Assembly (NCBI GenBank): GCA_041573795.1
Contig: JBFFQB010000001.1
Location: 82,876-146,875, forward strand
DNA: 64,000 nucleotides
Direction: 5' to 3'
Source of the DNA: Anaerolineales bacterium
GTDB lineage: Bacteria; Chloroflexota; Anaerolineae; Anaerolineales; E44-bin32
How positions within the stretch are numbered: the stretch's first letter is position 1; every line of letters starts with the position of its first letter. Position numbers and translations under genes: made by a program. Shown piece by piece: positions 3,479 to 54,459 of the stretch. The notes beneath the pieces were generated by a model. That model saw only the letters and a list, made by a program, of their open reading frames with translations. It did no database searches and had not been told where the DNA came from.

Positions 3479-6181
<2,703 letters not shown>

Positions 6182-45004: not shown

Positions 45005-47503
45005 CTAAAGCAAGCTTACTGGATCGATATCGACACCCCACCCCTCCGGTATATCTGCAGGCAAGATCTCTGATGGATTCGATCCGCGCAAAATAATATG
45101 CCAGCGGTATAACCCTCGAACGCGCTCGAAGAAGCAAGGTGCTGGCCCGATCATTTCGACCTTGTGATCCAAATCTTTGGTGACTTCACCTAAGAGCGTC
45201 GCCATTCGTTCGGTCTCTGCCTTAGCCCGGTGATTGGTGGGATGGCGATAAACCATTCGGACAAGCCGGGCATAAGGCGGATACCCTAGCTGTTGGCGCA
45301 ATTTCAGCTCGCGTTGATAGAAGCCGTGATAGTTATGCTGGGCTGCAGATTGGATCGCATAGTGATCGGGCTGAAAGCTCTGCAGCACTACACTACCTCC
45401 AAGCAGCCCACGACCGGCTCTTCCAGCAACCTGGGTTAGCACCTGAAAGGTACGCTCAGGGGCGCGATAGTCAGGGAGGTTGAGGCCGACGTCAGCGCTA
45501 ATTACACCTACCAGCGTTACCAACGGTAAATCCAATCCTTTTGCAAGCATTTGCGTTCCGATGAGCACATCGGCTCGATGTGCAGCAAAATGCGCCAGGA
45601 TGATTTCGTGCGCCCCTTTGGCCCGGGTGGAGTCTCTATCCCAGCGCAGCGTCCGAGCCCCCGGGAAAAGTTGCTCCACTTCGCTCTGAACTTTCTGCGT
45701 TCCTATGCCAAAACGGCGCACTCGCGGGCTGCTGCAATCTGGGCATACCTCTAGGCTGTCGGAAACTGCCCCACAATGGTGGCAGTGCCAGCGATCATCG
45801 TTTTCGTGATGGGTCAGGCTTGAGTCACAGCGTCGGCAACGCGCAACCCAGCCGCAATCCCGACAAAAAATGTAAGTGGAGGAGCCCCGCCGGTTTAGGA
45901 ACAGGATGGCCTGTTGACCGGCATCCAGCGTCTCCGCGAGCGCGCGTGTTAGAGCGCGGCTGAAAATGGATCGATTCCCGGCCTGTAACTCTTGACGCAT
46001 GTCGATAATGCGAACAGGTGGCAGCTCGATCGATAGGCTATCACCTTGCTGCTCTTGGTAGCGGATATCTAGGCCGAGGCGTTGTGCTTGTGCAGAGATC
46101 CGGCGACGGTGTCCCATGATGCGTTTGGGTAAGGCCAAACGTTGCAGGTGCTTTTGATCTGCGGCGTAGCTGCTGGTGATATCGGGTGTGGCGGAACCCA
46201 GAATGCACACTGCATTGGTCATGTGACTGTAGCGTATGGCCACGTCACGCGTTTGGTAGCGCGGCGAACGAGCTTGTTCCTTGTAGGATTCGTCATGCGA
46301 TTCATCCACAACAATCAGCCCGAGGTGGTGGAGGGGCATGAATAGTGCGCTGCGTGGCCCGATCATCAAATTGATGTCGCCCGAACGACAACGACGCCAA
46401 GTATCGAATCTTTCACCGTCGGACAACTGGGAATGGTTCAACCCGACCCGACCCGGAAAGCGTGCAAGAAATCGACGCACAGTCTGTGGTGTAAGTGCGA
46501 TCTCGGGGACAAGTACGACAGCGGAGAGACCTTGCTCAAGGGTTTGTTCAACTGACCGCAGATAGATTTCGGTTTTACCGGCTCCGGTTACGCCATGCAA
46601 GAGAAAAGGTTTGCGCGTCTTGGGATCAGATTGAATTTCTGCACGAATCTGATCCCATACATGATCTTGATCCGGAGTGAGTGCTGGTGCCTCCGTGGGG
46701 ACAAATTCCAACTCCTCTAACGGGTCGCGCCATACTTCCGCAGCACTTAACGCGATCAGGTCGTGCTCTTCAAGAACCCGAAGATCACTCAAGCTTCCGC
46801 CGCATTCGGCGTAAAGCCATTGCGCCTCAAGGGGTTCACCCTCGGCGATGAGAATCTCAATCATGCAGACCCGTCGTTGATGAGCCAGGCTACCGAGGCG
46901 GCCAATTTTAGCGACCCGCTCGAGAGCGGTTTGTGGCGCAAGCGCCAATCGGGCGGTGCGAACGAACTTTGGCTGAATCCGAGGAGCATCAAGGATGGAT
47001 TTGCGTTCGATGATCCCGCGTCGCACTAACGAATCCATGGCCGGGCGCCAGTTTCGATGGGGAAGTGCCCGGTTGAGTTGCCGACCGCGCAGGTTGCCGC
47101 GCCGCTTAAGCAGGTTGAGGATACGGTCCTGGATTGCTGAGTCACCGGTAGACTCCGCATCGCTGAGATGATAGATTGCATCGGTTTTTTGACTCAAGCC
47201 AGGGGGCAGCATCAAAGTAAGGCAATCGATAAGACTGGCGTGATAGGTGGAGGCTATCCACTCGGCGAGCGCTAGCTGTGCAGTGTTGATGACCGGTGTC
47301 GGGTCAAGCAGATCCTCGACCGGCCGGGTATCTCTTATTTCTGAATGAGCTCGCTGTGCAACGATGATCGCTTGCGCTTGACGCGATCCAAAAGGGACCG
47401 TGATCAATTGGCCGATGGTAATGCGTGATTGGAGTTCCTCCGGCACATGGTAGTCGAAGGTCCCGTGCACATGGGGTAGATTGACCGCGACCTCGACAAA
47501 CAT
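45005..47503 (-). CDS. priA: primosomal protein N' (replication restart helicase PriA)
   Basis: Walker A GVTGAGKTEIY, DExH-type VVDESHDESYK, Cys-rich zinc insertion (CRDCG...CRRCDSSLTHH...CHHCG...CPDC). Confidence 0.95.
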   Translation of the reverse strand: MFVEVAVNLPHVHGTFDYHVPEELQSRITIGQLITVPFGSRQAQAIIVAQRAHSEIRDTRPVEDLLDPTPVINTAQLALAEWIASTYHASLIDCLTLMLPPGLSQKTDAIYHLSDAESTGDSAIQDRILNLLKRRGNLRGRQLNRALPHRNWRPAMDSLVRRGIIERKSILDAPRIQPKFVRTARLALAPQTALERVAKIGRLGSLAHQRRVCMIEILIAEGEPLEAQWLYAECGGSLSDLRVLEEHDLIALSAAEVWRDPLEELEFVPTEAPALTPDQDHVWDQIRAEIQSDPKTRKPFLLHGVTGAGKTEIYLRSVEQTLEQGLSAVVLVPEIALTPQTVRRFLARFPGRVGLNHSQLSDGERFDTWRRCRSGDINLMIGPRSALFMPLHHLGLIVVDESHDESYKEQARSPRYQTRDVAIRYSHMTNAVCILGSATPDITSSYAADQKHLQRLALPKRIMGHRRRISAQAQRLGLDIRYQEQQGDSLSIELPPVRIIDMRQELQAGNRSIFSRALTRALAETLDAGQQAILFLNRRGSSTYIFCRDCGWVARCRRCDSSLTHHENDDRWHCHHCGAVSDSLEVCPDCSSPRVRRFGIGTQKVQSEVEQLFPGARTLRWDRDSTRAKGAHEIILAHFAAHRADVLIGTQMLAKGLDLPLVTLVGVISADVGLNLPDYRAPERTFQVLTQVAGRAGRGLLGGSVVLQSFQPDHYAIQSAAQHNYHGFYQRELKLRQQLGYPPYARLVRMVYRHPTNHRAKAETERMATLLGEVTKDLDHKVEMIGPAPCFFERVRGLYRWHIILRGSNPSEILPADIPEGWGVDIDPVSLL

Positions 47504-47507
47504 GAGC

Positions 47508-48863
47508 CTAGGGTTGGTCGGCGGCAGGGGATTGCTGTTCGGGATCCGACGGTTTCAAGCGGGTGATGGATACATGCGCGATGCGAAAACCATCCATGGC
47601 TTCCACTCGCAAGAGAATGCCATCGACCTTAATTGAGTCGCCGACTTTTGCCAGGCGTTCGAGGTGACCAAGGACGTAACCGGCGATGGTGTCGTAATTC
47701 GGGTCGGCGAGTTTTAGATCAAAATGCTCGTTGACTTCTTCGATTAGTGTAAGGCCATCAACTAAAGTTGATCCGTCGGGGAGCGGTTGGATATCACGTT
47801 CATTATCAAAGGCATCGCTAACCTCTCCCACGATCTCCTCCAACAAGTCTGCCAAAGTCACAACACCTGCTGTTCCGCCGTACTCGTCAAGCACAATGGC
47901 CATATGTCGCTGGCGTACCCTGAAGAGCTGCAAAAGGGTGCTTACGCGGGCGGTCTCGGGGATGAAGATCGCTTCGCGCATCAGATCGCGAGCGGTTTGG
48001 AGACCAGACCCGTTTCCATTAACGGCGAAGAGAAGGTCTTTAATGTTGACCACACCCAGGATCTGGTCCTGGTTTTCGGCATAGACGGGAAATTTCGTAA
48101 ATGTACTCTTGGCTGCGACCTCAATGATTTCGTCAATGCTGGCATCCTCTCGCACGGCAATCATCTCGGTGCGCGGGATCATCACCTGACGAACCAGTAA
48201 CCCCCCAAAGTCAAATACAGCGGTGAGCATCTCTTCGGCTTCCCCGCCAACTACCCCGCTTTGGGCGCTCGCTCGAACGAGCATCTTTAATTCTTCCACC
48301 GAGTGCACCAATTCATGCCCGGCGGCTGGCTCCACCCCGACCCAGCGTAGCAGGGCGTTGCCAGTGCCGTTAAGCGCCCAGATGAAGGGCTTAAAGATCG
48401 TCTCGGTCCATACAGTGGGCTGGGCGACATAGAGTGAAGTTCGTTCCGGATTTTGTAGCGCGATCGATTTTGGCGCGAGCTCGCCAATGACCACATGCAG
48501 GAAGGTGATGATTGCAAAGGAGAGCCCCGCCGAGAGGCTGTGGGCAATCTCGTCTTCGATTTGTGTAGGAAAGAGTCTAATCAAAGGCTCCAGGATATTT
48601 CCCAAGGCCGGCTCGGCGATCCAGCCCAGACCAAGGCTTGCCAGCGTGATCCCTAATTGGGTAGCGGCGATAAAGCGGTCAGGATCGTCGATCGCCTTCT
48701 TAACCCAGCGGGCACGCGCATTGCCTTGTGCTACGAGTTCTGCGACGCGTGTGCGCCGGACGCTCACCAGGGCGAACTCCGCCGCTACGAAGAATCCGTT
48801 CGCCAGGACAAGCAGGACGAGAGCGATTAAACGAAGAATATTAAGGAGAATTTCTGATTCCAT
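47508..48863 (-). CDS. CNNM/TlyC-family protein (DUF21 + CBS pair + CorC_HlyC)
   Basis: Four N-terminal TM helices, CBS pair, C-terminal transporter-associated domain. Stop lies 4 nt before the priA start. Confidence 0.9.
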   Translation of the reverse strand: MESEILLNILRLIALVLLVLANGFFVAAEFALVSVRRTRVAELVAQGNARARWVKKAIDDPDRFIAATQLGITLASLGLGWIAEPALGNILEPLIRLFPTQIEDEIAHSLSAGLSFAIITFLHVVIGELAPKSIALQNPERTSLYVAQPTVWTETIFKPFIWALNGTGNALLRWVGVEPAAGHELVHSVEELKMLVRASAQSGVVGGEAEEMLTAVFDFGGLLVRQVMIPRTEMIAVREDASIDEIIEVAAKSTFTKFPVYAENQDQILGVVNIKDLLFAVNGNGSGLQTARDLMREAIFIPETARVSTLLQLFRVRQRHMAIVLDEYGGTAGVVTLADLLEEIVGEVSDAFDNERDIQPLPDGSTLVDGLTLIEEVNEHFDLKLADPNYDTIAGYVLGHLERLAKVGDSIKVDGILLRVEAMDGFRIAHVSITRLKPSDPEQQSPAADQP

Positions 48864-48917
48864 AGCACCTTACCATATGTCTTTATTCATGGGTGCTCGA
48901 GTACGAGCATTCAGCCT

Positions 48918-49769
48918 TCATGCGATGGGTGACCGATCCTGTTGATAGATCACTGCGGATCCATAGCCGACCACGGAATCAAAATCACCAGTAATGTCTC
49001 CAGAGGTTGCGTGTTTTAGGACTTCTACCCGATCGGCACCCAGCCCCCGAGCAGCCCAGAGTGCGGCGGCTATTGCGCCCCGACCACAAGCAAATCCGAG
49101 ACCCTGTTCTTCTGCTGCGATCAACCCCTCGGGATTGAAGTGCTCGAGTTGTTCCAATATCTTCCGATCAAATTGCTTGGCCACGTCGTGCGGGTAGAAG
49201 TGGGATAGATCAGAGCTGGCGACAATGAGACAACGCCGACCTTGTAGCAAATGTGCCAGCGTTTCCCCTACGGATTTTCCTGCTCGTGCGCTCTGCTCGC
49301 GCAGCATGATCGGCACCAAGGTGTACGAGCTTTCTATACAGCGCTGTATGAATGGCAGTTCGATCTCGAGCGAATGCTCGCGGTCGTTTCGTAAGCGTCC
49401 AAGTTCTAGCCCCTGATCTTGTTCTAGTGTCGATTCAAACTTGTTTACCAGTTCCTGATCAATCGGGACGATTCCCAATGGGGTTGCATACGCTTCATGT
49501 GCGCTGATCAAGATGGGTTCATCAGTATACGTATGTAGCGGGGACAGAATCACGACAACTTCAAGTTGATGACCAAGGATCAATCGAAAAGCTTGCGCCG
49601 CTACGTTTCCGGAATAGCGATGCCCTGCGTGAGGAACGATTAACCCAATGATCTTCCCTTTGATATCTCGTGGTTCAACATCATGCAGGTATTGGTCAAT
49701 TGAGATCGCAAGGCTCTCTGCATCACCGGGGTACCAGGTTCCGGCGATGGGGGAGGGTCGAATATCCAT
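48918..49769 (-). CDS. MEMO1-family protein (AmmeMemoRadiSam system protein B type)
   Basis: MDIRPSPIAGTWYPGD N-terminus and VPHAGHRYSG metal-site motif. Start moved to the internal Met at 49769. Confidence 0.8.
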   Translation of the reverse strand: MDIRPSPIAGTWYPGDAESLAISIDQYLHDVEPRDIKGKIIGLIVPHAGHRYSGNVAAQAFRLILGHQLEVVVILSPLHTYTDEPILISAHEAYATPLGIVPIDQELVNKFESTLEQDQGLELGRLRNDREHSLEIELPFIQRCIESSYTLVPIMLREQSARAGKSVGETLAHLLQGRRCLIVASSDLSHFYPHDVAKQFDRKILEQLEHFNPEGLIAAEEQGLGFACGRGAIAAALWAARGLGADRVEVLKHATSGDITGDFDSVVGYGSAVIYQQDRSPIA

Positions 49770-49847
49770 TTTTTCTGCCACAGCAATGTGGATTTTAGCA
49801 TAAACGCCCTGCACCGAAGGCCTCCAGAAGGTTCTTTCGGGACAAGC

Positions 49848-49877
49848 TTGACAAACGAACAAATGTTCTGCTAGAAT
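49848..49877 (+). promoter_or_regulatory. near-consensus sigma70 promoter (TTGACA-18-TGcTAGAAT)
   Basis: TTGACA at 49848-49853; extended -10 TGCTAGAAT at 49869-49877; GGAGG at 49916-49920; ATG at 49927. Confidence 0.8.
49856..49869. promoter_or_regulatory. LexA/Cheo-type SOS box 1 (CGAACAAATGTTCT)
   Basis: Perfect GAAC-N4-GTTC palindrome, 13 of 14 match to CGAACRNRYGTTYC. Lies inside the promoter spacer. Confidence 0.75.
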
Positions 49878-49891
49878 AGAACACCCGTTCT
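49878..49891. promoter_or_regulatory. LexA/Cheo-type SOS box 2 (AGAACACCCGTTCT)
   Basis: Perfect GAAC-N4-GTTC palindrome immediately downstream of the -10, covering the predicted start site. Its centre is 22 bp from the centre of box 1. Confidence 0.7.
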
Positions 49892-49926
49892 ATCGTGGCG
49901 CGGGTCGAATTTTTTGGAGGTGTGAG

Positions 49927-50931
49927 ATGCAAAGGGCGTTCTCTCCTTCTGGTTACCTTGATCGGCAGGCGGATCAAATCGAGGCACTGCTTCTAGATTA
50001 TGAAGCCCCTGCGCGCGTTGAAGGCGGAATCATCCGTGAGGATCGCGTACGCTACCACCTCACCCCGAACGTCGGTACCGGGGTGCAGAATCTGATCGTA
50101 GCCGCAGATCGACTTGCCGAGTCGCTTGGCGTTGAAGGTTTGCACATTCAGGCTGAAGCGGATGGCATCACCATGGATATGCCGTTTCGTCCAGCTACGG
50201 GTCTGCGGATGTTGCCGCTGCTACATTCAATCCGGCGCATTCAGCCGTGCACCTCGCTGGCTGGCATGCAGGCCGGTCAGAGGCCTTTGCTGATCGATTG
50301 GTCGCGATCATCTACGTGGCATGCGTGGATTGACGCTCCCGGCGGGTCAGGTAAATCTGAACTTCTGCGATCGCTCCTGGTCTCCCTGGCGCTCACCAGC
50401 CGCAGCAGTGAGGTTCAATTTCTCGGTATTGATCTTGGTGGCCGTGAACTGGCAGTGCTGGAGGCATTACCTCAATCGACATATATGCTAGCCAGCGAGG
50501 CGGGCTATGCCGATGAATTACTGCATTGGTTAGTGGAAGAGATTGATCACCGCAGGCGCATCGGCTTTTCGAACCCTCACCTTTTTCTCTTCATCGATGA
50601 GGCTGAGGGGTTGCTAGACACTATGGGGTTGGAGCTCGATTCGCTGCTGCAAGAGATTGCGTTGAAGGGAAGACATGCGGGCGTGCACATGATTGGTGCG
50701 TGTCGGTCAACGGTTTTTAACCGATTGCCGTCCTTACAGGCACTACCCGGTATGGTGCGTGCCTTTCCTGAGCAGGGATCTGGGGCTGATCAACCTTCAA
50801 TTGTTGGCAGGTTTGTGTTCCACGAACATCATCATGAAGCTACAGTGGATATCGCCTGGTTGACCGCGCGCGATCTGGATACTGCGGTTGATCTGGCACG
50901 TTCAGGATGGCGAGCGTGTGAGCGCAGATAG
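49927..50931 (+). CDS. truncated soluble FtsK/SpoIIIE-like P-loop ATPase (alpha+beta motor core only)
   Basis: FtsK-alpha-like segment (RVRYHLTPNVGTGVQNLIVAADRLAESLGVEGLHIQAEADGITMDMP), Walker A APGGSGKSELL, Walker B LFLFIDEAEGLL. No TM segments and no gamma/KOPS-binding domain. Confidence 0.7.
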   Translation: MQRAFSPSGYLDRQADQIEALLLDYEAPARVEGGIIREDRVRYHLTPNVGTGVQNLIVAADRLAESLGVEGLHIQAEADGITMDMPFRPATGLRMLPLLHSIRRIQPCTSLAGMQAGQRPLLIDWSRSSTWHAWIDAPGGSGKSELLRSLLVSLALTSRSSEVQFLGIDLGGRELAVLEALPQSTYMLASEAGYADELLHWLVEEIDHRRRIGFSNPHLFLFIDEAEGLLDTMGLELDSLLQEIALKGRHAGVHMIGACRSTVFNRLPSLQALPGMVRAFPEQGSGADQPSIVGRFVFHEHHHEATVDIAWLTARDLDTAVDLARSGWRACERR

Positions 50932-50956
50932 CCCGCAAAGGTGACAAAAGTAGACC

Positions 50957-51238
50957 GTGAGGTGGTTCATGAGATTGGTCAAAGTACAAGAGCCTATTCG
51001 TGTTGTTCATTCTGCACGATCGCGAATGCCAAAATCCTTCACGTGGCGGACGAGGCAGCATCAGGTGTGGAAAATTGATGGTTTCAAACAGGAGAGCATT
51101 GACCGCGCCCAGGGAATGGCGAAGCGAAGGGTGTATCGAGTACAGACCTATTCAGGTTTGCGTTGTTCCCTATCCTATGATGAGGCGAGAAATCGCTGGC
51201 GCATCGAAACGATCAGTCCGAAGGGAGTAGGAGGATGA
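50957..51238 (+). CDS. small basic Trp/Arg-rich protein, function unknown
   Basis: 93-aa ORF (alternative ATG at 50969 after GAGGTGG), 25 nt after the ATPase stop. I did not recognise a family. Confidence 0.5.
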   Translation: MRWFMRLVKVQEPIRVVHSARSRMPKSFTWRTRQHQVWKIDGFKQESIDRAQGMAKRRVYRVQTYSGLRCSLSYDEARNRWRIETISPKGVGG

Positions 51239-51486
51239 ATATCGGGATGTTGTGGTTCGATGAAGATCCATCAAGCAGCTTACCGTCACGAGTTGAACGT
51301 GCAGCTAGCTACTACCAGTCGAAATATGGACGTCAACCCAATACTTGCGTTCTCCACCCGAATACGCTGGGCGAAGTTGATCCTGCATCAATCCCGGTTG
51401 TCAAAGTTGAGACCAGTATGAGGGTATTACCCGAACACTTCTGGGTAGGCGTTGAGGACAAGAAGTTGATTTTGGATCCGGCGTAA
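51235..51486 (+). CDS. small protein, function unknown
   Basis: 83-aa ORF whose ATG overlaps the previous stop (ATGA), GGGAG 7 nt upstream. I did not recognise a family. Confidence 0.5.
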   Translation: MNIGMLWFDEDPSSSLPSRVERAASYYQSKYGRQPNTCVLHPNTLGEVDPASIPVVKVETSMRVLPEHFWVGVEDKKLILDPA

Positions 51487-51541
51487 GCTCAACAAACGGG
51501 GCCAAGTTTAACTAGAAATATCCTTGGCTAAATTTAAGAGG

Positions 51542-52525
51542 CTACGCGGTAACTGCTGAGATGAAGCGATCAAGCGCGACATCAAGATCCATTTGCCCAT
51601 TCTTTGAGCGCCGGTCGATTTCTAATAGTTCATGGTAGATACGATCAAGGTCATCCATTGAGAAATTGCGCGCTTGGTTGGCAGCTTTCTTTACGACAAA
51701 ATCGCTTCGATGAATACTCTGATCAGGAACTCTAGCCGAATCGATCATTGCTCTGGCTAGCAGAATTAATCGGAATTGGCGAATAATCATTGCGAAGATC
51801 TTTTTGACATCTACTTCTTGAAGAATCTCATGAAGTTTCTTTTGCGCGTCTTCCCCGCGTCGCTGTCCGATGGCATCTACGAGGGCGAAGATATTCGATT
51901 GTCCTCGATAAGGTGTGCACTGCTCGACATCTTCGACCTGGATAGCACGTTGTAGGTCTACGTAATCCAGCAATTTGCGCAGCTCTTGAGATGCTAGGCG
52001 GGGGTCTTCCTGGGTCCACTCCGCTAACAATATTGCTGCGTCGTGCTCAATAGAACCGTCTTGAGAGCTGGCGCGATCCTTGAGCCACTGAATAAAACCT
52101 GAACCTTGCTTTGTTACACATGGGTGGATCAAGCTGAGATCTGGGTTATCTTCGGCCCACTTTTGAAGAGCTGTCTTTATCCTGGGCTTTGTTGAGCGCT
52201 GGGGGGCTGAATGCTCCAGGAGAAGAAGAGCAGTACTTTCGGGAATATTTTCAAGCAGAGACATCAGGCGCTGACGGCTTGATTCGTCTTTTTGCAAGCG
52301 CTCAGCTTGGTCAAGAACGACTAACCTGCGGGGGGATAGAAAGGGCAGTGAGCTAGCAGCCGCTTCGAACCCCGGCCAGTCAAGATCCGCTGCTTGAAAT
52401 TGCTGAAAATTCATCTCTGCTGTTGTTGAATCACCAAGCCTGCTTTTTAGACCCTGAATAAATTCGGTCATGGCAAATTCATCATCGCCATGCAGCAGAT
52501 ACACTCTTGGCGGAATGTCAGGCAT
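51542..52525 (-). CDS. holA: DNA polymerase III subunit delta
   Basis: About 330 aa. N-terminal VYLLHGDDEF clamp-loader delta pattern and helical C-terminal domains. Start at MPDIPP overlaps the upstream gene by 8 nt. Confidence 0.75.
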   Translation of the reverse strand: MPDIPPRVYLLHGDDEFAMTEFIQGLKSRLGDSTTAEMNFQQFQAADLDWPGFEAAASSLPFLSPRRLVVLDQAERLQKDESSRQRLMSLLENIPESTALLLLEHSAPQRSTKPRIKTALQKWAEDNPDLSLIHPCVTKQGSGFIQWLKDRASSQDGSIEHDAAILLAEWTQEDPRLASQELRKLLDYVDLQRAIQVEDVEQCTPYRGQSNIFALVDAIGQRRGEDAQKKLHEILQEVDVKKIFAMIIRQFRLILLARAMIDSARVPDQSIHRSDFVVKKAANQARNFSMDDLDRIYHELLEIDRRSKNGQMDLDVALDRFISAVTA

Positions 52526-53051
52526 GTAGTATCGAGGTGACGATGCGATGGAAGGGACGAGGTTCTTCTCCGACTCGATGAACGCCAAGAATCTCAAGAT
52601 CTCCTGGCGTTGCATCAACAGTCAGATGCCTTTGTGCTGCTCTACCCAATGGTTGCGCCAGCAGCAGAGCTCCCATAGATAGCAATATCGCATTCGGCAA
52701 GCGATCCAGGCGACGCCGCCAACCATCTTTATCACTTCCAAGCAACGCGATAAAGGAAGCACCACCTGCAAGAATGCCTGAGGTAACCAGGTTAGTACCA
52801 CAATTGGGATGTATCGCTAACTGACGTTCACCCTGGCGTAATCTCTGCAGTGCTTCATGAGCGATATTTTCTAGGTCGGAGGTTTCAATATGTCCATAAA
52901 TATAAAAGCCCCCAGGATCAGAACGGCCAATGAAGGATCGCCGGGGGTAATCCCGTGTGAGCAGGTGGATTGTTGCGTGCTCAAGACCATGATTGCGACG
53001 AACGTGTGAGAGTGTCGGTTGGTTGAGAAGTGATTGCAACAGATTAGGCAT
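52518..53051 (-). CDS. conserved hypothetical protein with HGLEHATIH and HPNCGTN motifs
   Basis: 177-aa ORF with His/Cys-containing motifs and a hydrophobic C-terminal half; translationally coupled to holA. Confidence 0.6.
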   Translation of the reverse strand: MPNLLQSLLNQPTLSHVRRNHGLEHATIHLLTRDYPRRSFIGRSDPGGFYIYGHIETSDLENIAHEALQRLRQGERQLAIHPNCGTNLVTSGILAGGASFIALLGSDKDGWRRRLDRLPNAILLSMGALLLAQPLGRAAQRHLTVDATPGDLEILGVHRVGEEPRPFHRIVTSILHA

Positions 53052-53137
53052 ATACCCTCAATTCTTCCTGAAGCGATTATACCCCGCATCGGTTTCCAGG
53101 CTTGTGGTCAAGCGCTGTGTCTGGTAAAAATCAGAGT

Positions 53138-54148
53138 ATGACATGGGACATGGTCGGGCATTCGTGGGCTGAAACTCTGCTGCAAAAGCATATCAAGACT
53201 CAGCGCGTGCGCCATGCTTATCTAATAAGTGGGGATGAAGGGGTAGGAAAACGCACGCTAGCGCTCAAGTTTGCAATGGCATTGAATTGTTCAAAGGATG
53301 GGGAAGAAGGAAAACACTGCCAGCAATGTCGGGCATGCACGTTAATCCCGGCAGGATTGTATCCAGATATGCACGAAATCACCCCCGAGCAGGGCACAAC
53401 ATCGATAAAAGTAGACCAGGTACGGGAACTCATGCAGCAACTGGCTTTATCCCCGTATGAGAGTCGATGGCGAATTGCGCTAATCGCTGATTTTGAACGC
53501 GCCACAGAAGAAGCCGCAAACGCCCTCTTAAAAACCCTTGAGGAGCCTCCGGAAAAAGTGGTTGTGATCTTGACAGCCAGGGATCCAGCATCGCTGTTGC
53601 CAACGATCGTTTCCCGTTGTGAAGAGTTACCGCTAAGAGCTGTCGTGAAGGAAGAAATCATTGAAGAGCTCAAGAAGAGAGAGGTGTCTGAGGATCGTGC
53701 AGCCTTAATCGCAGGAATTGCGCAGGGTCGTCCTGGTTGGGCAATACGCTATGCGGATGAACCTGAGAAGCTAGAAGCTCGGGAGGAAATTATTGGCCAA
53801 CTGTCACAGACGCTGCAAGCCTCGATAAGTGAGCGCTTTGATTATGTTGGGGGGTTGCTATCGCCAAAGGAAGATCTCGATATTCAGCGTCAGAAAGTTC
53901 TCGATTTACTCCGAATCTGGATGGGGGTATGGCGGGATGCCTTGCAAAGAAGCTTCAATCCAGAAATGGGTATCGTGAATCGTGACCAGTCGAAGCTCGT
54001 AGAGATAATGAACATGGCGCTTGATTCGGAGGCGCTTCACGGAAGTGTGAAAGCAGTGCAACGGACACAAGAGGCGATTGAGCATTTTGTGAACATACGA
54101 TTAGCCTTAGAGGTTTTGATGCTTGATCTTCCCTTCATTCGGGAATAA
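53138..54148 (+). CDS. holB: DNA polymerase III subunit delta prime
   Basis: HAYLISGDEGVGKRTLA, zinc-module CQQCRAC, sensor region ANALLKTLEEPP. Confidence 0.88.
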   Translation: MTWDMVGHSWAETLLQKHIKTQRVRHAYLISGDEGVGKRTLALKFAMALNCSKDGEEGKHCQQCRACTLIPAGLYPDMHEITPEQGTTSIKVDQVRELMQQLALSPYESRWRIALIADFERATEEAANALLKTLEEPPEKVVVILTARDPASLLPTIVSRCEELPLRAVVKEEIIEELKKREVSEDRAALIAGIAQGRPGWAIRYADEPEKLEAREEIIGQLSQTLQASISERFDYVGGLLSPKEDLDIQRQKVLDLLRIWMGVWRDALQRSFNPEMGIVNRDQSKLVEIMNMALDSEALHGSVKAVQRTQEAIEHFVNIRLALEVLMLDLPFIRE

Positions 54149-54198
54149 AAAAAACGCCTGCATTGATTTTGCACGCGGATAATCTTCAAACATTGCGA

Positions 54199-54459
54199 TC
54201 AGCGAGGTTCTACAACAAAGCGTAGTGCCGTTCGCTCCTTGCCATTAATCTCGACTGATGTGAACTCCGGGATGCAGATGACATCAAGGCCATCTTCATG
54301 CAGGTATCCGCGAGCGATAGCAACGGCTTTTATTGCTTGGTTGACAGCGCCGGCACCTATCGCCTGTACTTCGGCTCGTCGATGCTCGCGCACCACCCCC
54401 GCGATTGCTCCCGCAACTGCCGATGTGCGAGACTCGGACGAGACCTTTATGATATTCAT
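54199..54459 (-). CDS. spoVS: stage V sporulation protein S homolog
   Basis: 86 aa. MNIIKVSSESRTSAVAGAIAGVVRE...AIGAGAVNQAIKAVAIARGY matches the SpoVS pattern I recall. GGAG 8 nt upstream. Confidence 0.9.
   Translation of the reverse strand: MNIIKVSSESRTSAVAGAIAGVVREHRRAEVQAIGAGAVNQAIKAVAIARGYLHEDGLDVICIPEFTSVEINGKERTALRFVVEPR

What the first reader, a model, noticed from the sequence alone, without database searches (positions are those of the whole stretch)
49927..51486. Candidate SOS-inducible three-gene cassette: truncated FtsK-like ATPase plus two small unrecognised proteins
The first gene (334 aa) keeps an FtsK alpha-like segment plus Walker A (GGSGKS) and Walker B (LFLFIDEAEG). It lacks membrane anchors and the gamma (KOPS-reading) domain, so it is not a canonical division or segregation translocase. 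It is followed 25 nt later by a 93-aa basic Trp/Arg-rich ORF and then an 83-aa ORF joined by an ATGA overlap. The three therefore look co-translated. I recognise neither small protein. The unit sits among replication genes: priA operon divergent, holA convergent, holB nearby. Together with the dual LexA boxes this suggests a DNA-damage-responsive module, for example DNA pumping or remodelling, division arrest or recombination-intermediate handling. I do not know of a described equivalent.
Basis: inference. Interest (0 to 1): 0.8.

Follow-up and report, generated by a model that had tools for sequence, protein, structure and literature searches.

The report
Conserved SOS-controlled operon in Anaerolineae
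This is a real three-gene operon under tight DNA-damage (LexA) control in Anaerolineae bacteria, whose conserved heart is an uncharacterised 83-residue protein rather than the FtsK-like ATPase; what it does is still unknown.

Summary
Three co-oriented ORFs sit behind a near-consensus sigma-70 promoter (TTGACA-18-TAGAAT). That promoter carries the only two GAAC-N4-GTTC LexA-type palindromes in the 64-kb window.

- **ORF1** is a soluble, single-domain FtsK/EccC-type P-loop ATPase with no membrane anchor and no gamma domain.
- **ORF2** is a very basic protein (pI 11.3) that belongs to Pfam DUF6504. It most likely starts at ATG 50969, giving 89 aa rather than 93.
- **ORF3** belongs to a large unclassified family of about 1,900 representative clusters, with no relative in Pfam, PDB or the viral structure library.

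Comparison with about 90 related loci shifts the emphasis:

- ORF3 is the constant element.
- A perfect LexA box lies just upstream in 23 of 26 ATPase+ORF3 operons and in 30 of 39 loci where ORF3 stands alone.
- The ATPase partner varies. It can be full-length, reduced to its P-loop core, carry decayed Walker motifs, or be absent.
- DUF6504 is optional.
- ORF3 lies convergent to holA in 52 of 78 loci, so the gene is inherited vertically and is not mobile.

LexA control is therefore strongly supported by comparative evidence. Function is inferred only: a damage-induced DNA-acting ATPase module, or a checkpoint effector. I found no published description. Interest is moderate to high.

The parts
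49848..49853 (+). -35 hexamer TTGACA of the operon promoter
   Evidence: Promoter scan: TTGACA-18 nt-TAGAAT, 11 of 12 matches, TG before the -10. The same TTGACA sits 2-3 nt upstream of box 1 in most related loci.
49856..49869 (.). LexA operator 1 (CGAACAAATGTTCT; core GAAC-N4-GTTC at 49857-49868), inside the -35/-10 spacer
   Evidence: One of only two perfect sites in the 64-kb window. The same position is conserved in relatives.
49872..49877 (+). -10 hexamer TAGAAT
   Evidence: A TAnnAT hexamer follows box 1 in 42 of 87 box contexts surveyed.
49878..49891 (.). LexA operator 2 (AGAACACCCGTTCT; core at 49879-49890), directly after the -10 and over the expected transcription start
   Evidence: The identical GAACACCCGTTC second box is present in L001, L085, L170 and L171.
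49917..49923 (+). Shine-Dalgarno-like GGAGGTG upstream of ORF1
   Evidence: Read directly from the sequence. The same GGAGGTGTGAGATG is seen in L170 and L171.
49927..50931 (+). ORF1: 334-aa soluble FtsK/EccC-type P-loop ATPase. It has an alpha-like N-terminal part and a RecA-like core, with Walker A at residues 139-144 and Walker B ending at D224-E225. It has no TM segment and no gamma domain.
   Evidence: Pfam PF01580 1.3e-16. PDB profile hits: EccC 4nh0 3e-38, FtsK 2iuu 1.1e-35. 98 homologues of 320-360 aa, the named ones from Anaerolineales MAGs. Alignment A1. Hydropathy.
50969..51238 (+). ORF2: 89-aa basic (pI 11.3) all-beta protein of Pfam DUF6504. An alternative GTG start at 50957 would give 93 aa.
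   Evidence: Pfam 28.4 bits against a 24.2 cut-off. Homologues in L001, L002, L081, L085, L087, L095, L102, L158, L164, L170 and L171. The 89-aa form is P0099. AF2 model pLDDT 72 with no fold match.
51235..51486 (+). ORF3: 83-aa acidic alpha/beta protein, the conserved core of the module. Signature MxIGMLWFDND...KYG..P..C.VHP...VLPNHFW.G.
   Evidence: 1,946 representative clusters at E<=1e-3. Alignments A2 and A3. Present in every related locus except L086. AF2 pLDDT 79. No relative in Pfam, PDB or BFVD.

Best explanation
This is a LexA-repressed (SOS) operon native to Anaerolineae-type Chloroflexota. Before DNA damage, LexA dimers occupy two Cheo-type operators. One lies in the -35/-10 spacer and the other over the transcription start of a near-consensus promoter, so transcription is shut tightly. 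After damage, RecA-stimulated LexA self-cleavage frees the promoter and the three genes are transcribed and translated together (short gaps, ATGA overlap). The conserved effector is the 83-aa ORF3-family protein. It acts on a target common to all these organisms, because it keeps the same conserved residues with or without the ATPase. In this genome it works with a soluble FtsK/EccC-type P-loop ATPase whose Walker A and DE Walker B motifs are intact, and which probably forms a ring. A strongly basic DUF6504 protein probably supplies nucleic-acid binding in place of the missing gamma domain. The most likely activity is an ATP-driven action on damaged or unsegregated DNA. Shown here: the gene structure, the family memberships, the operator and promoter architecture and its conservation, and the pattern of which genes co-occur. 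Inferred: LexA binding, damage induction, formation of a complex, and action on DNA. My sub-confidences are about 0.9 that this is a genuine LexA-regulon operon, about 0.7 that ORF3 is the core with the ATPase as its partner, and about 0.35 that the activity is DNA translocation or remodelling.
For: Operators and promoter:
- The only two GAAC-N4-GTTC sites in the window overlap an 11-of-12 promoter.
- The same arrangement (TTGACA, box, TAnnAT, then often a second box) recurs across the related loci. Of 87 boxes found, 82 sit in a promoter context.
- A perfect box lies within 250 nt upstream in 23 of 26 ATPase+ORF3 operons and in 30 of 39 solo ORF3 genes. That is 74 boxes in 396 kb, against about 1 per 64 kb expected.
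- GAAC-N4-GTTC is the established LexA motif of Bacillus, Mycobacterium and Gram-positive bacteria generally (PMC3323433).

ORF3 as the core:
- ORF3 is present in all family loci but one.
- It keeps identical core residues whether the ATPase is full-length, short or absent.
- Its family is large.

The ATPase as a coupled partner:
- Gaps between the short-form ATPase and ORF3 run from -26 to +53 nt, including 4-nt overlaps.

Hints of action on DNA:
- The ATPase aligns with the FtsK alpha and beta domains.
- ORF2 has pI 11.3.
- A TfoX_C ORF takes DUF6504's place in L083.
- ORF3 is fused to a histone-H1-like basic tail in P0149 and to a GIY-YIG-like segment in P0191.
- E. coli ftsK is itself SOS-induced through the dinH promoter (PMC4080785).

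Native rather than mobile:
- Synteny with priA and holA is conserved, composition is unremarkable, and there are no plasmid or phage matches.
Against: - There is no expression, LexA-binding or biochemical data, and no lexA or recA promoter from these genomes could be examined for the same operator.
- The partner ATPase has a 'DD' Walker B almost everywhere, has lost its P-loop in about five lineages, and is missing from many loci. That pattern suits a regulatory scaffold better than an essential motor.
- ORF3 is acidic, with no recognisable DNA-binding fold.
- The fusion hints each rest on a single cluster and could be gene-calling read-through.
- The structure models are only moderate (pLDDT 79 and 72), and no complex could be modelled.
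Confidence: 0.5

Rival explanations
1. SOS checkpoint module. ORF3 is a cytosolic inhibitor that binds a conserved cell-cycle or replication protein (for example FtsZ, a clamp-loader or replisome part, or RecA) to hold division or replication while damage is repaired. The FtsK-like P-loop protein is a nucleotide switch, a scaffold or an FtsK mimic that tunes or localises ORF3, and it does not translocate DNA.
For: - The promoter is strong and carries two operators, which fits a product that is harmful when expressed without damage.
- ORF3 stands alone in many lineages and keeps the same conserved surface.
- The partner's catalytic motifs decay while the gene stays translationally coupled.
- Several relatives insert small, mutually unrelated membrane proteins right after the ATPase. 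From memory, this recalls the YneA/SidA-type SOS division inhibitors and the SmeA-SffA pairing in Streptomyces.
Against: - ORF3 shows no similarity to SulA, DinI or any known inhibitor.
- The window's own operon has no membrane protein.
- The window's ATPase keeps intact Walker A and DE Walker B motifs, which suggests real catalysis.
- No interaction data exist.
Confidence: 0.27
2. EccC-like protein-handling ATPase. ORF1 acts like a type VII secretion ATPase domain and recognises the small proteins ORF2 or ORF3 as substrates or cofactors for export or unfolding.
For: - The best NCBIfam and PDB matches include EccC and EssC.
- The P-loop 'GSGKSELLRTL' of family members matches the EccC chain 4nh0 exactly.
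- Small proteins are encoded next to the ATPase, as in type VII loci.
Against: - ORF1 has one ATPase domain rather than three, and no TM or FHA region.
- NCBIfam scores fall far below the cut-offs, for example 49 against 346 bits.
- No EccB/D/E or WXG100 genes appear in any neighbourhood.
- ORF3 is predicted to be alpha/beta rather than a helical hairpin.
Confidence: 0.03
3. Remnant of a mobile element or an anti-phage defence system that happens to be wired to the SOS response.
For: Weak PADLOC matches to mad8 (6e-8) and SspH (1e-6), and a PHROG FtsK-like 'moron' family match. Many prophage and defence genes are controlled by LexA.
Against: - Those matches cover only the generic P-loop domain.
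- The locus keeps a fixed chromosomal position next to holA and priA across a broad clade.
- GC content is unremarkable.
- There are no integrase, repeat or tRNA hallmarks nearby, and no plasmid or phage homologues of ORF2 or ORF3.
Confidence: 0.05
4. The palindromes are bound by a regulator other than LexA, or are only promoter-associated sequence, so the operon is not part of the SOS response.
For: LexA binding was not tested, and no lexA or recA promoter from these organisms was available for comparison.
Against: - The motif (consensus AGAACAnATGTTCT) matches the Gram-positive LexA box (PMC3323433). From memory and unverified here, a Dehalococcoides LexA was shown to bind this motif (Fernandez de Henestrosa et al., J Bacteriol 2002).
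- The placement over the -35/-10 spacer and the transcription start is classic repressor geometry.
- The sequence is conserved much more strongly than promoter function alone would require.
Confidence: 0.05

Closest known systems
FtsK/SpoIIIE DNA translocases, including SOS-inducible E. coli ftsK (dinH promoter)
   Same: The P-loop motor core is homologous and there is an alpha-like N-terminal part (Pfam PF01580; PDB 2iuu and 2ius at 1e-35 and 1e-33). E. coli ftsK is also induced by the SOS response (PMC4080785).
   Different: ORF1 has no membrane anchor, no linker and no gamma (KOPS-reading) domain, and is only 334 aa. Most of its family has a 'DD' Walker B. It is encoded with two small partner proteins, and in sister lineages it shrinks to the P-loop core or disappears.
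Type VII secretion ATPases EccC/EssC
   Same: These give the closest P-loop sequence match (GSGKSELLRTL) and the best PDB and NCBIfam scores. Small proteins are encoded alongside.
   Different: ORF1 is a single soluble domain rather than three tandem domains behind TM helices. No other type VII genes are present, and scores are far below the family cut-offs.
Lineage-specific SOS effectors such as SulA, DinI, YneA/ChiZ/SidA, and the imuA-imuB-dnaE2 cassette
   Same: All are small or RecA-fold proteins under direct LexA control, often behind multiple operators, and are limited to certain lineages. Like imuA, the RecA-fold partner here tends to lose its catalytic motifs (comparison made from memory).
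   Different: There is no sequence or fold similarity to any of them. No imuB or dnaE2 lies nearby. ORF3 is cytosolic and acidic, unlike the membrane-bound Gram-positive inhibitors.
Pfam DUF6504 (PF20114)
   Same: ORF2 scores above the family's gathering threshold.
   Different: The family has no known function and I found no literature on it. What is new here is its setting in a LexA-controlled operon, between an FtsK-like ATPase and the ORF3 family.

Membership tests
FtsK/SpoIIIE superfamily (P-loop motor domain) | Match to Pfam FtsK_SpoIIIE (PF01580) above the gathering score | tested here: met
   61.2 bits against a cut-off of 24, E 1.3e-16, though only residues 137-211 align. The PDB profile search supports the wider core.
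FtsK/SpoIIIE superfamily (P-loop motor domain) | Intact Walker A (GxxGxGK[ST]) and Walker B (hhhhDE) | tested here: met
   The window has GGSGKS and LFLFIDE. Most family members have DD instead, and some have lost the P-loop.
Canonical FtsK division/segregation translocase | N-terminal membrane domain and linker | tested here: not met
   The protein is 334 aa and begins at the alpha-like region. Its highest 19-residue hydropathy average is 1.09.
Canonical FtsK division/segregation translocase | C-terminal gamma (KOPS/XerD-interacting winged-helix) domain | tested here: not met
   No gamma-domain family is among the five Pfam hits listed at E<=1. The C-terminus aligns to the end of the motor domain only.
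Canonical FtsK division/segregation translocase | Alpha domain | tested here: inconclusive
   PF17854 gives E 0.034 and 14.8 bits, below the 22.9 cut-off, in the window protein. Many homologues do carry precomputed PF17854 hits, and the profile aligns to E. coli FtsK residues 43-248.
Canonical FtsK division/segregation translocase | Hexameric ring that translocates dsDNA | not testable with these tools
   This needs biochemistry or multimer modelling.
Type VII secretion EccC/EssC | Three tandem FtsK-like ATPase domains behind TM helices, scoring above the NCBIfam cut-offs | tested here: not met
   ORF1 has a single domain. TIGR03925 scores 49.4 against 346.6 bits, and TIGR03928 scores 31.2 against 778. 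There is no TM segment.
Type VII secretion EccC/EssC | Neighbouring type VII components (EccB/D/E, WXG100 substrates) | tested here: not met
   None appears in the window or in the related loci.
LexA (SOS) regulon member | LexA-type operator (GAAC-N4-GTTC) overlapping the core promoter | tested here: met
   Two perfect sites, one in the -35/-10 spacer and one over the transcription start. They are the only ones in 64 kb.
LexA (SOS) regulon member | Operator conserved upstream of orthologues in other genomes | tested here: met
   23 of 26 operons and 30 of 39 solo genes carry one, and the architecture is uniform.
LexA (SOS) regulon member | LexA binding and induction by DNA damage | not testable with these tools
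   This needs EMSA or ChIP, and RNA-seq after mitomycin C or UV.
LexA (SOS) regulon member | The same operator upstream of lexA, recA and uvr genes in the same organisms | not tested
Pfam DUF6504 (ORF2) | Score above the gathering threshold | tested here: met
   28.4 bits against 24.2. The FTWRG...W..E signature is conserved in 11 sequences.
imuA-imuB-dnaE2 mutagenesis cassette | Adjacent imuB (Y-family-like) and/or dnaE2 genes, and an ImuA model match | tested here: not met
   No ImuA appears among the NCBIfam hits. The neighbours are Memo and HolA.
Known SOS small effectors (SulA, DinI) | Sequence or profile similarity | tested here: not met
   ORF3 family members have no Pfam hits.

The most novel reading that the evidence does not exclude
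The ORF3 family is a previously unrecognised class of SOS effector for Anaerolineae and related Chloroflexota. Under this reading it is a small cytosolic protein that, together with an FtsK-derived P-loop partner, halts or remodels chromosome handling (division, segregation or replication restart) after DNA damage. It would fill the role that SulA, YneA or DinI-type proteins play in other phyla, by a mechanism with no known counterpart.
Probability: 0.25. Interest if true: 0.8.

Novelty: new variant of a known kind. Interest (0 to 1): 0.62.

Why it matters
SOS regulons have been mapped in most major phyla, but hardly at all in Chloroflexota. This operon gives a clean, testable entry point. It has a uniformly built, doubly operated promoter driving a widespread protein family of about 1,900 clusters with no annotation, fold match or literature. 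That family is often paired with a cut-down FtsK-type ATPase. The series from full-length ATPase to P-loop core to complete loss also serves as a natural experiment on how a motor protein becomes a regulatory partner or is discarded. If ORF3 proves to be a checkpoint or DNA-handling effector, it would add a new kind of SOS function and explain how these filamentous bacteria couple DNA damage to chromosome management.

Tried and rejected
- **Genome-collection scan with the ATPase alignment.** The tool chose the generic Walker-A peptide as its pattern. As a result, 78 of the 80 loci are unrelated actinobacterial FtsK/EccC-like genes with no ORF2 or ORF3 homologues and no promoter boxes. Only L001 and L002 were useful.
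- **Word-index homology search for ORF2.** It found only two close relatives. Wider ORF2 homologues had to be recovered from the loci with local HMMs.
- **Metagenome scan with the 38-sequence alignment A3.** It was rerun with the 14-sequence alignment A4.
- **Fold searches.** ORF3 against PDB and BFVD, and ORF2 against PDB, gave nothing better than E 0.05.
- **Profile searches of ORF2 and ORF3 against PDB sequences.** Nothing found.
- **tblastn of ORF2 against plasmids and of ORF3 against plasmids and phages.** No match.
- **PADLOC and PHROGs.** Only generic P-loop hits.
- **Rfam on the whole window.** Nothing found.
- **Other SOS promoters in the window, allowing one mismatch.** None found.
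- **DinI comparison.** Negative.
- **Literature searches.** Searches for DUF6504, for the SOS response in Chloroflexi or Anaerolineae, and for the Dehalococcoides LexA paper found no description of this operon. The Dehalococcoides reference could not be retrieved, so it is cited from memory only.
- **Cluster look-ups for names and taxonomy of ORF3 relatives.** They returned only 'hypothetical protein' and one 'Chloroflexi bacterium'.
Full report
**1. The observation**

The three ORFs are present as described: ORF1 at 49927-50931 (334 aa), ORF2 at 50957-51238 (93 aa from a GTG start) and ORF3 at 51235-51486 (83 aa). ORF2 and ORF3 overlap by ATGA.

ORF1 matches Pfam FtsK_SpoIIIE at E 1.3e-16 and FtsK_alpha only weakly, at E 0.034. 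No gamma-domain family is among its listed Pfam hits. It has no membrane-type hydrophobic segment.

GAAC-N4-GTTC occurs exactly twice in the 64-kb window, at 49857 and 49879. About one site would be expected by chance anywhere in the window. Both sites lie within a promoter-like element, TTGACA-18-TAGAAT, that matches 11 of 12 consensus positions and has a TG before the -10. Allowing one mismatch reveals no other promoter-embedded box in the window.

Pfam confirms the neighbours: PriA, CNNM/CorC and Memo lie divergent, HolA and DUF6391 lie convergent, and HolB and SpoVS follow.

Two corrections:
- ORF2 most likely starts at ATG 50969, giving 89 aa. This is the length of its 99%-identical database homologue, and it is where the N-termini of more distant homologues align.
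- ORF2 is a member of Pfam DUF6504, scoring 28.4 bits against a 24.2 cut-off.

**2. The ATPase**

A database search returned 98 homologues, nearly all 320-360 aa. They are named only as FtsK/SpoIIIE-like, and those with organism names come from Anaerolineales metagenome-assembled genomes.

A profile of 17 of them matches solved structures of EccC (4nh0, 3e-38) and of the FtsK alpha-beta motor (2iuu at 1.1e-35; 2ius aligning query residues 10-211 to chain residues 43-248). NCBIfam scores for EccC, EssC and FtsK all fall far below the family cut-offs.

ORF1 is therefore a genuine but stripped-down FtsK/EccC-type motor domain, and not a member of either characterised family. Across the family the Walker A lysine and the Walker B aspartate are invariant. 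The catalytic glutamate after the Walker B aspartate is an aspartate in most members, and the window's clade is an exception with DE.

**3. Conservation of the operators**

Seven related loci were examined first (ATPase identity 28-48%). The gene is preceded by TTGACA, a GAAC-N4-GTTC box, a TAnnAT hexamer and, in all but L084, a second perfect box. L084 has an imperfect second box.

Two further distant members (L086, L087) and two close ones (L170 at 75%, L171 at 72%) also carry perfect boxes in the promoter. L170 and L171 have the window's dual-box arrangement, while L086 and L087 each have one perfect box.

Over all loci, 82 of 87 boxes sit in such a promoter context. The consensus is TTGACA-TA-GAACAAATGTTC-TG-TTATAAT.

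GAAC-N4-GTTC is the documented LexA motif of Bacillus, Mycobacterium and Gram-positive bacteria generally (PMC3323433). I also recall, but could not retrieve, a report that a Dehalococcoides LexA binds it.

**4. The small proteins, and what the conserved unit really is**

Local HMM searches found ORF3 homologues downstream of the ATPase in every family locus except the most distant one, L086. ORF2 (DUF6504) was missing from several.

An exhaustive profile search shows that ORF3 belongs to a large family: 1,946 representative clusters at E<=1e-3 and 835 at E<=1e-10. Nearly all members are 72-100 aa, and the family is conserved from the very first residue (MxIGMLWFDND). The members looked up are annotated only as hypothetical proteins, one of them from a Chloroflexi bacterium. 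Family members scanned against Pfam gave no meaningful hit.

A metagenome scan seeded with ORF3 returned 80 loci at 44-55% identity. They fall into three configurations:
- A full-length ATPase followed by ORF3, often with DUF6504 and/or an unrelated small membrane protein of about 135 aa inserted between them.
- A short ATPase form of about 260-310 aa that keeps only the P-loop core (profile positions about 90-270), placed directly against ORF3 with gaps of -26 to +53 nt.
- ORF3 alone.

A perfect box lies within 250 nt upstream of the first gene in 23 of 26 evaluable ATPase+ORF3 operons and in 30 of 39 solo ORF3 loci.

In about five lineages the P-loop of the short form has decayed, for example to LGIT, IEKT or DDLLRQ.

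In an ORF3 distance tree, the full-ATPase clades are diverse, while the short-form and solo loci are interleaved. That pattern implies repeated reduction and loss of the partner while ORF3 is kept.

ORF3 keeps the same core residues in all three configurations: M1, G4, M5, L6, W7, D9, A23, Y27, K30, Y31, G32, P35, C38, P42, F69, W70 and G72. Its conserved surface therefore cannot exist only to bind the ATPase.

**5. Native or mobile?**

ORF3 is convergent with holA in 52 of 78 loci, with DUF6391 beyond holA in 36. The priA-CNNM-Memo block lies upstream in the full-length clades.

GC content is unremarkable. ORF2 has no plasmid homologue, and ORF3 has neither plasmid nor phage homologues. PADLOC and PHROG hits reflect only the generic P-loop.

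This is a vertically inherited chromosomal locus. Its position among replication genes is old synteny of separately transcribed genes, and gives no evidence of a shared operon.

**6. Structure and remote homology**

- ORF3 is predicted as a small alpha/beta protein (strand, helix, strand, then a short helix and two more strands) with pLDDT 79.
- ORF2 is predicted as all-beta, with pLDDT 72 from a shallow alignment.
- Neither has a significant neighbour in the libraries searched: ORF3 against PDB and the viral structure library, ORF2 against PDB. The best E-values were 0.05-0.16. Profile searches against PDB sequences also found nothing.
- A comparison with DinI was negative.
- ORF2 is strongly basic, with pI 11.3 and 20 K+R against 7 D+E in 89 aa. 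ORF3 is mildly acidic.

**7. Hints about function**

Four observations point towards DNA:
- The ATPase is homologous to the FtsK alpha-beta motor.
- DUF6504 is strongly basic.
- A TfoX_C ORF occupies DUF6504's slot in L083.
- Single-cluster variants fuse ORF3 to a Lys/Ala-rich histone-H1-like tail (P0149) or to a GIY-YIG-like segment (P0191; Pfam E 0.006).

E. coli ftsK is itself induced by the SOS response through the dinH promoter (PMC4080785), which sets a precedent.

Four observations point towards a checkpoint or regulatory role instead:
- The strong promoter is repressed at two operators.
- Many lineages carry ORF3 alone.
- The partner's catalytic motifs decay.
- Some operons contain small, unrelated membrane proteins.

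**8. Conclusion**

The finding is real, and its regulatory reading is strongly supported by comparative evidence: this is a conserved member of the LexA regulon in Anaerolineae-type Chloroflexota. Its centre, however, is the ORF3 family and not the ATPase, and the three-gene form in this window is one lineage's version of a variable module.

My best mechanistic reading is a damage-induced module that acts on DNA. In it, the intact FtsK-type ATPase of this clade works with a basic DUF6504 adaptor and the ORF3 effector. A checkpoint role for ORF3 is a serious rival. Readings as a type VII-like secretion ATPase, as a defence or mobile element, or as a non-LexA-controlled operon are unlikely.

I found no publication describing the operon, DUF6504 or the ORF3 family. 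I rate it a new variant of a known kind, namely a LexA-regulon module with a new composition, and give it an interest of about 0.6.

Noticed in passing
window 48918-49862 (- strand): The mechanical ORF for the divergent Memo-like gene starts at a TTG at 49862, which runs into the SOS promoter and box 1. Homologues are 262-337 aa as called, mostly 262-296, and the Pfam Memo match begins at residue 8 when the protein is read from ATG 49769. The real start is therefore probably 49769, leaving a 157-bp intergenic region. No minus-strand promoter was detected there, so whether LexA also affects the Memo-CNNM-priA operon is open.
   Followed up: partly
window 45005-54459; L081, L083-L085, L087, L170, L171: A long synteny block is conserved across Anaerolineales: priA, CNNM/CorC and Memo on one side of the SOS operon, and holA, DUF6391, holB and SpoVS on the other. 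DUF6391 is always paired with holA on the same strand and may be co-transcribed with it.
   Followed up: partly
L081 5032-5448; L085 4989-5312; L087 5032-5358; L086 1502-1843; L094 4009-4416; L117 3959-4363: In several relatives a small protein (about 107-138 aa) with one or two hydrophobic helices is encoded directly after the ATPase. The four that were compared with one another (L081, L085, L086, L087) show no detectable sequence similarity to each other. The window has no such gene. They may anchor the ATPase to the membrane or act as division inhibitors.
   Followed up: partly
L083 5387-5641: An 84-aa TfoX_C-domain ORF lies between the ATPase and ORF3, where DUF6504 sits in other genomes. 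This suggests interchangeable accessory subunits that bind nucleic acid.
   Followed up: no
Proteins P0149, P0191, P0247 (ORF3-family representatives): Longer family members exist. In P0149 the ORF3 domain is followed by a Lys/Ala-rich histone-H1-like tail. In P0191 it is followed by a GIY-YIG-like segment (Pfam E 0.006, below the cut-off). P0247 has a second, degenerate ORF3-like segment at its C-terminus. Each is a single cluster and might be a gene-calling read-through.
   Followed up: partly
L136, L137, L139, L149, L166 (short-form ATPase genes): The Walker A motif has degenerated (LGIT, IEKT, EISNT, DDLLRQ, VEKT), yet the gene stays tightly coupled to ORF3. L149 also has an N-terminal extension of about 220 residues that is rich in proline.
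   Followed up: partly
L168 2762-4027 and 4090-5261: An IS66-like transposase gene lies just upstream of a short-form ATPase+ORF3 pair that has no perfect LexA box. This may be a case where an insertion displaced the SOS promoter. A radA/sms-like gene lies a few kb downstream.
   Followed up: no
L170 about 4040-4325: A clear DUF6504 (ORF2) homologue is present but was not called as a gene in the public record. DUF6504 and similar small genes may be under-annotated in these MAGs.
   Followed up: yes
window 51501-51528: A 6-bp inverted repeat (GCCAAG...CTTGGC) with a 16-nt loop lies in the 55-bp gap between the converging ORF3 and holA genes. It is not followed by a T-run and was not picked up by the terminator scan, so how transcription of the operon ends is unclear.
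   Followed up: partly
window 51542-52618 and 52518-53051 (- strand): The mechanical holA ORF (358 aa from a TTG start) overlaps the end of the DUF6391 ORF by about 100 nt. holA homologues are 327-332 aa, so the true start is probably an internal ATG and the overlap is an artefact.
   Followed up: no
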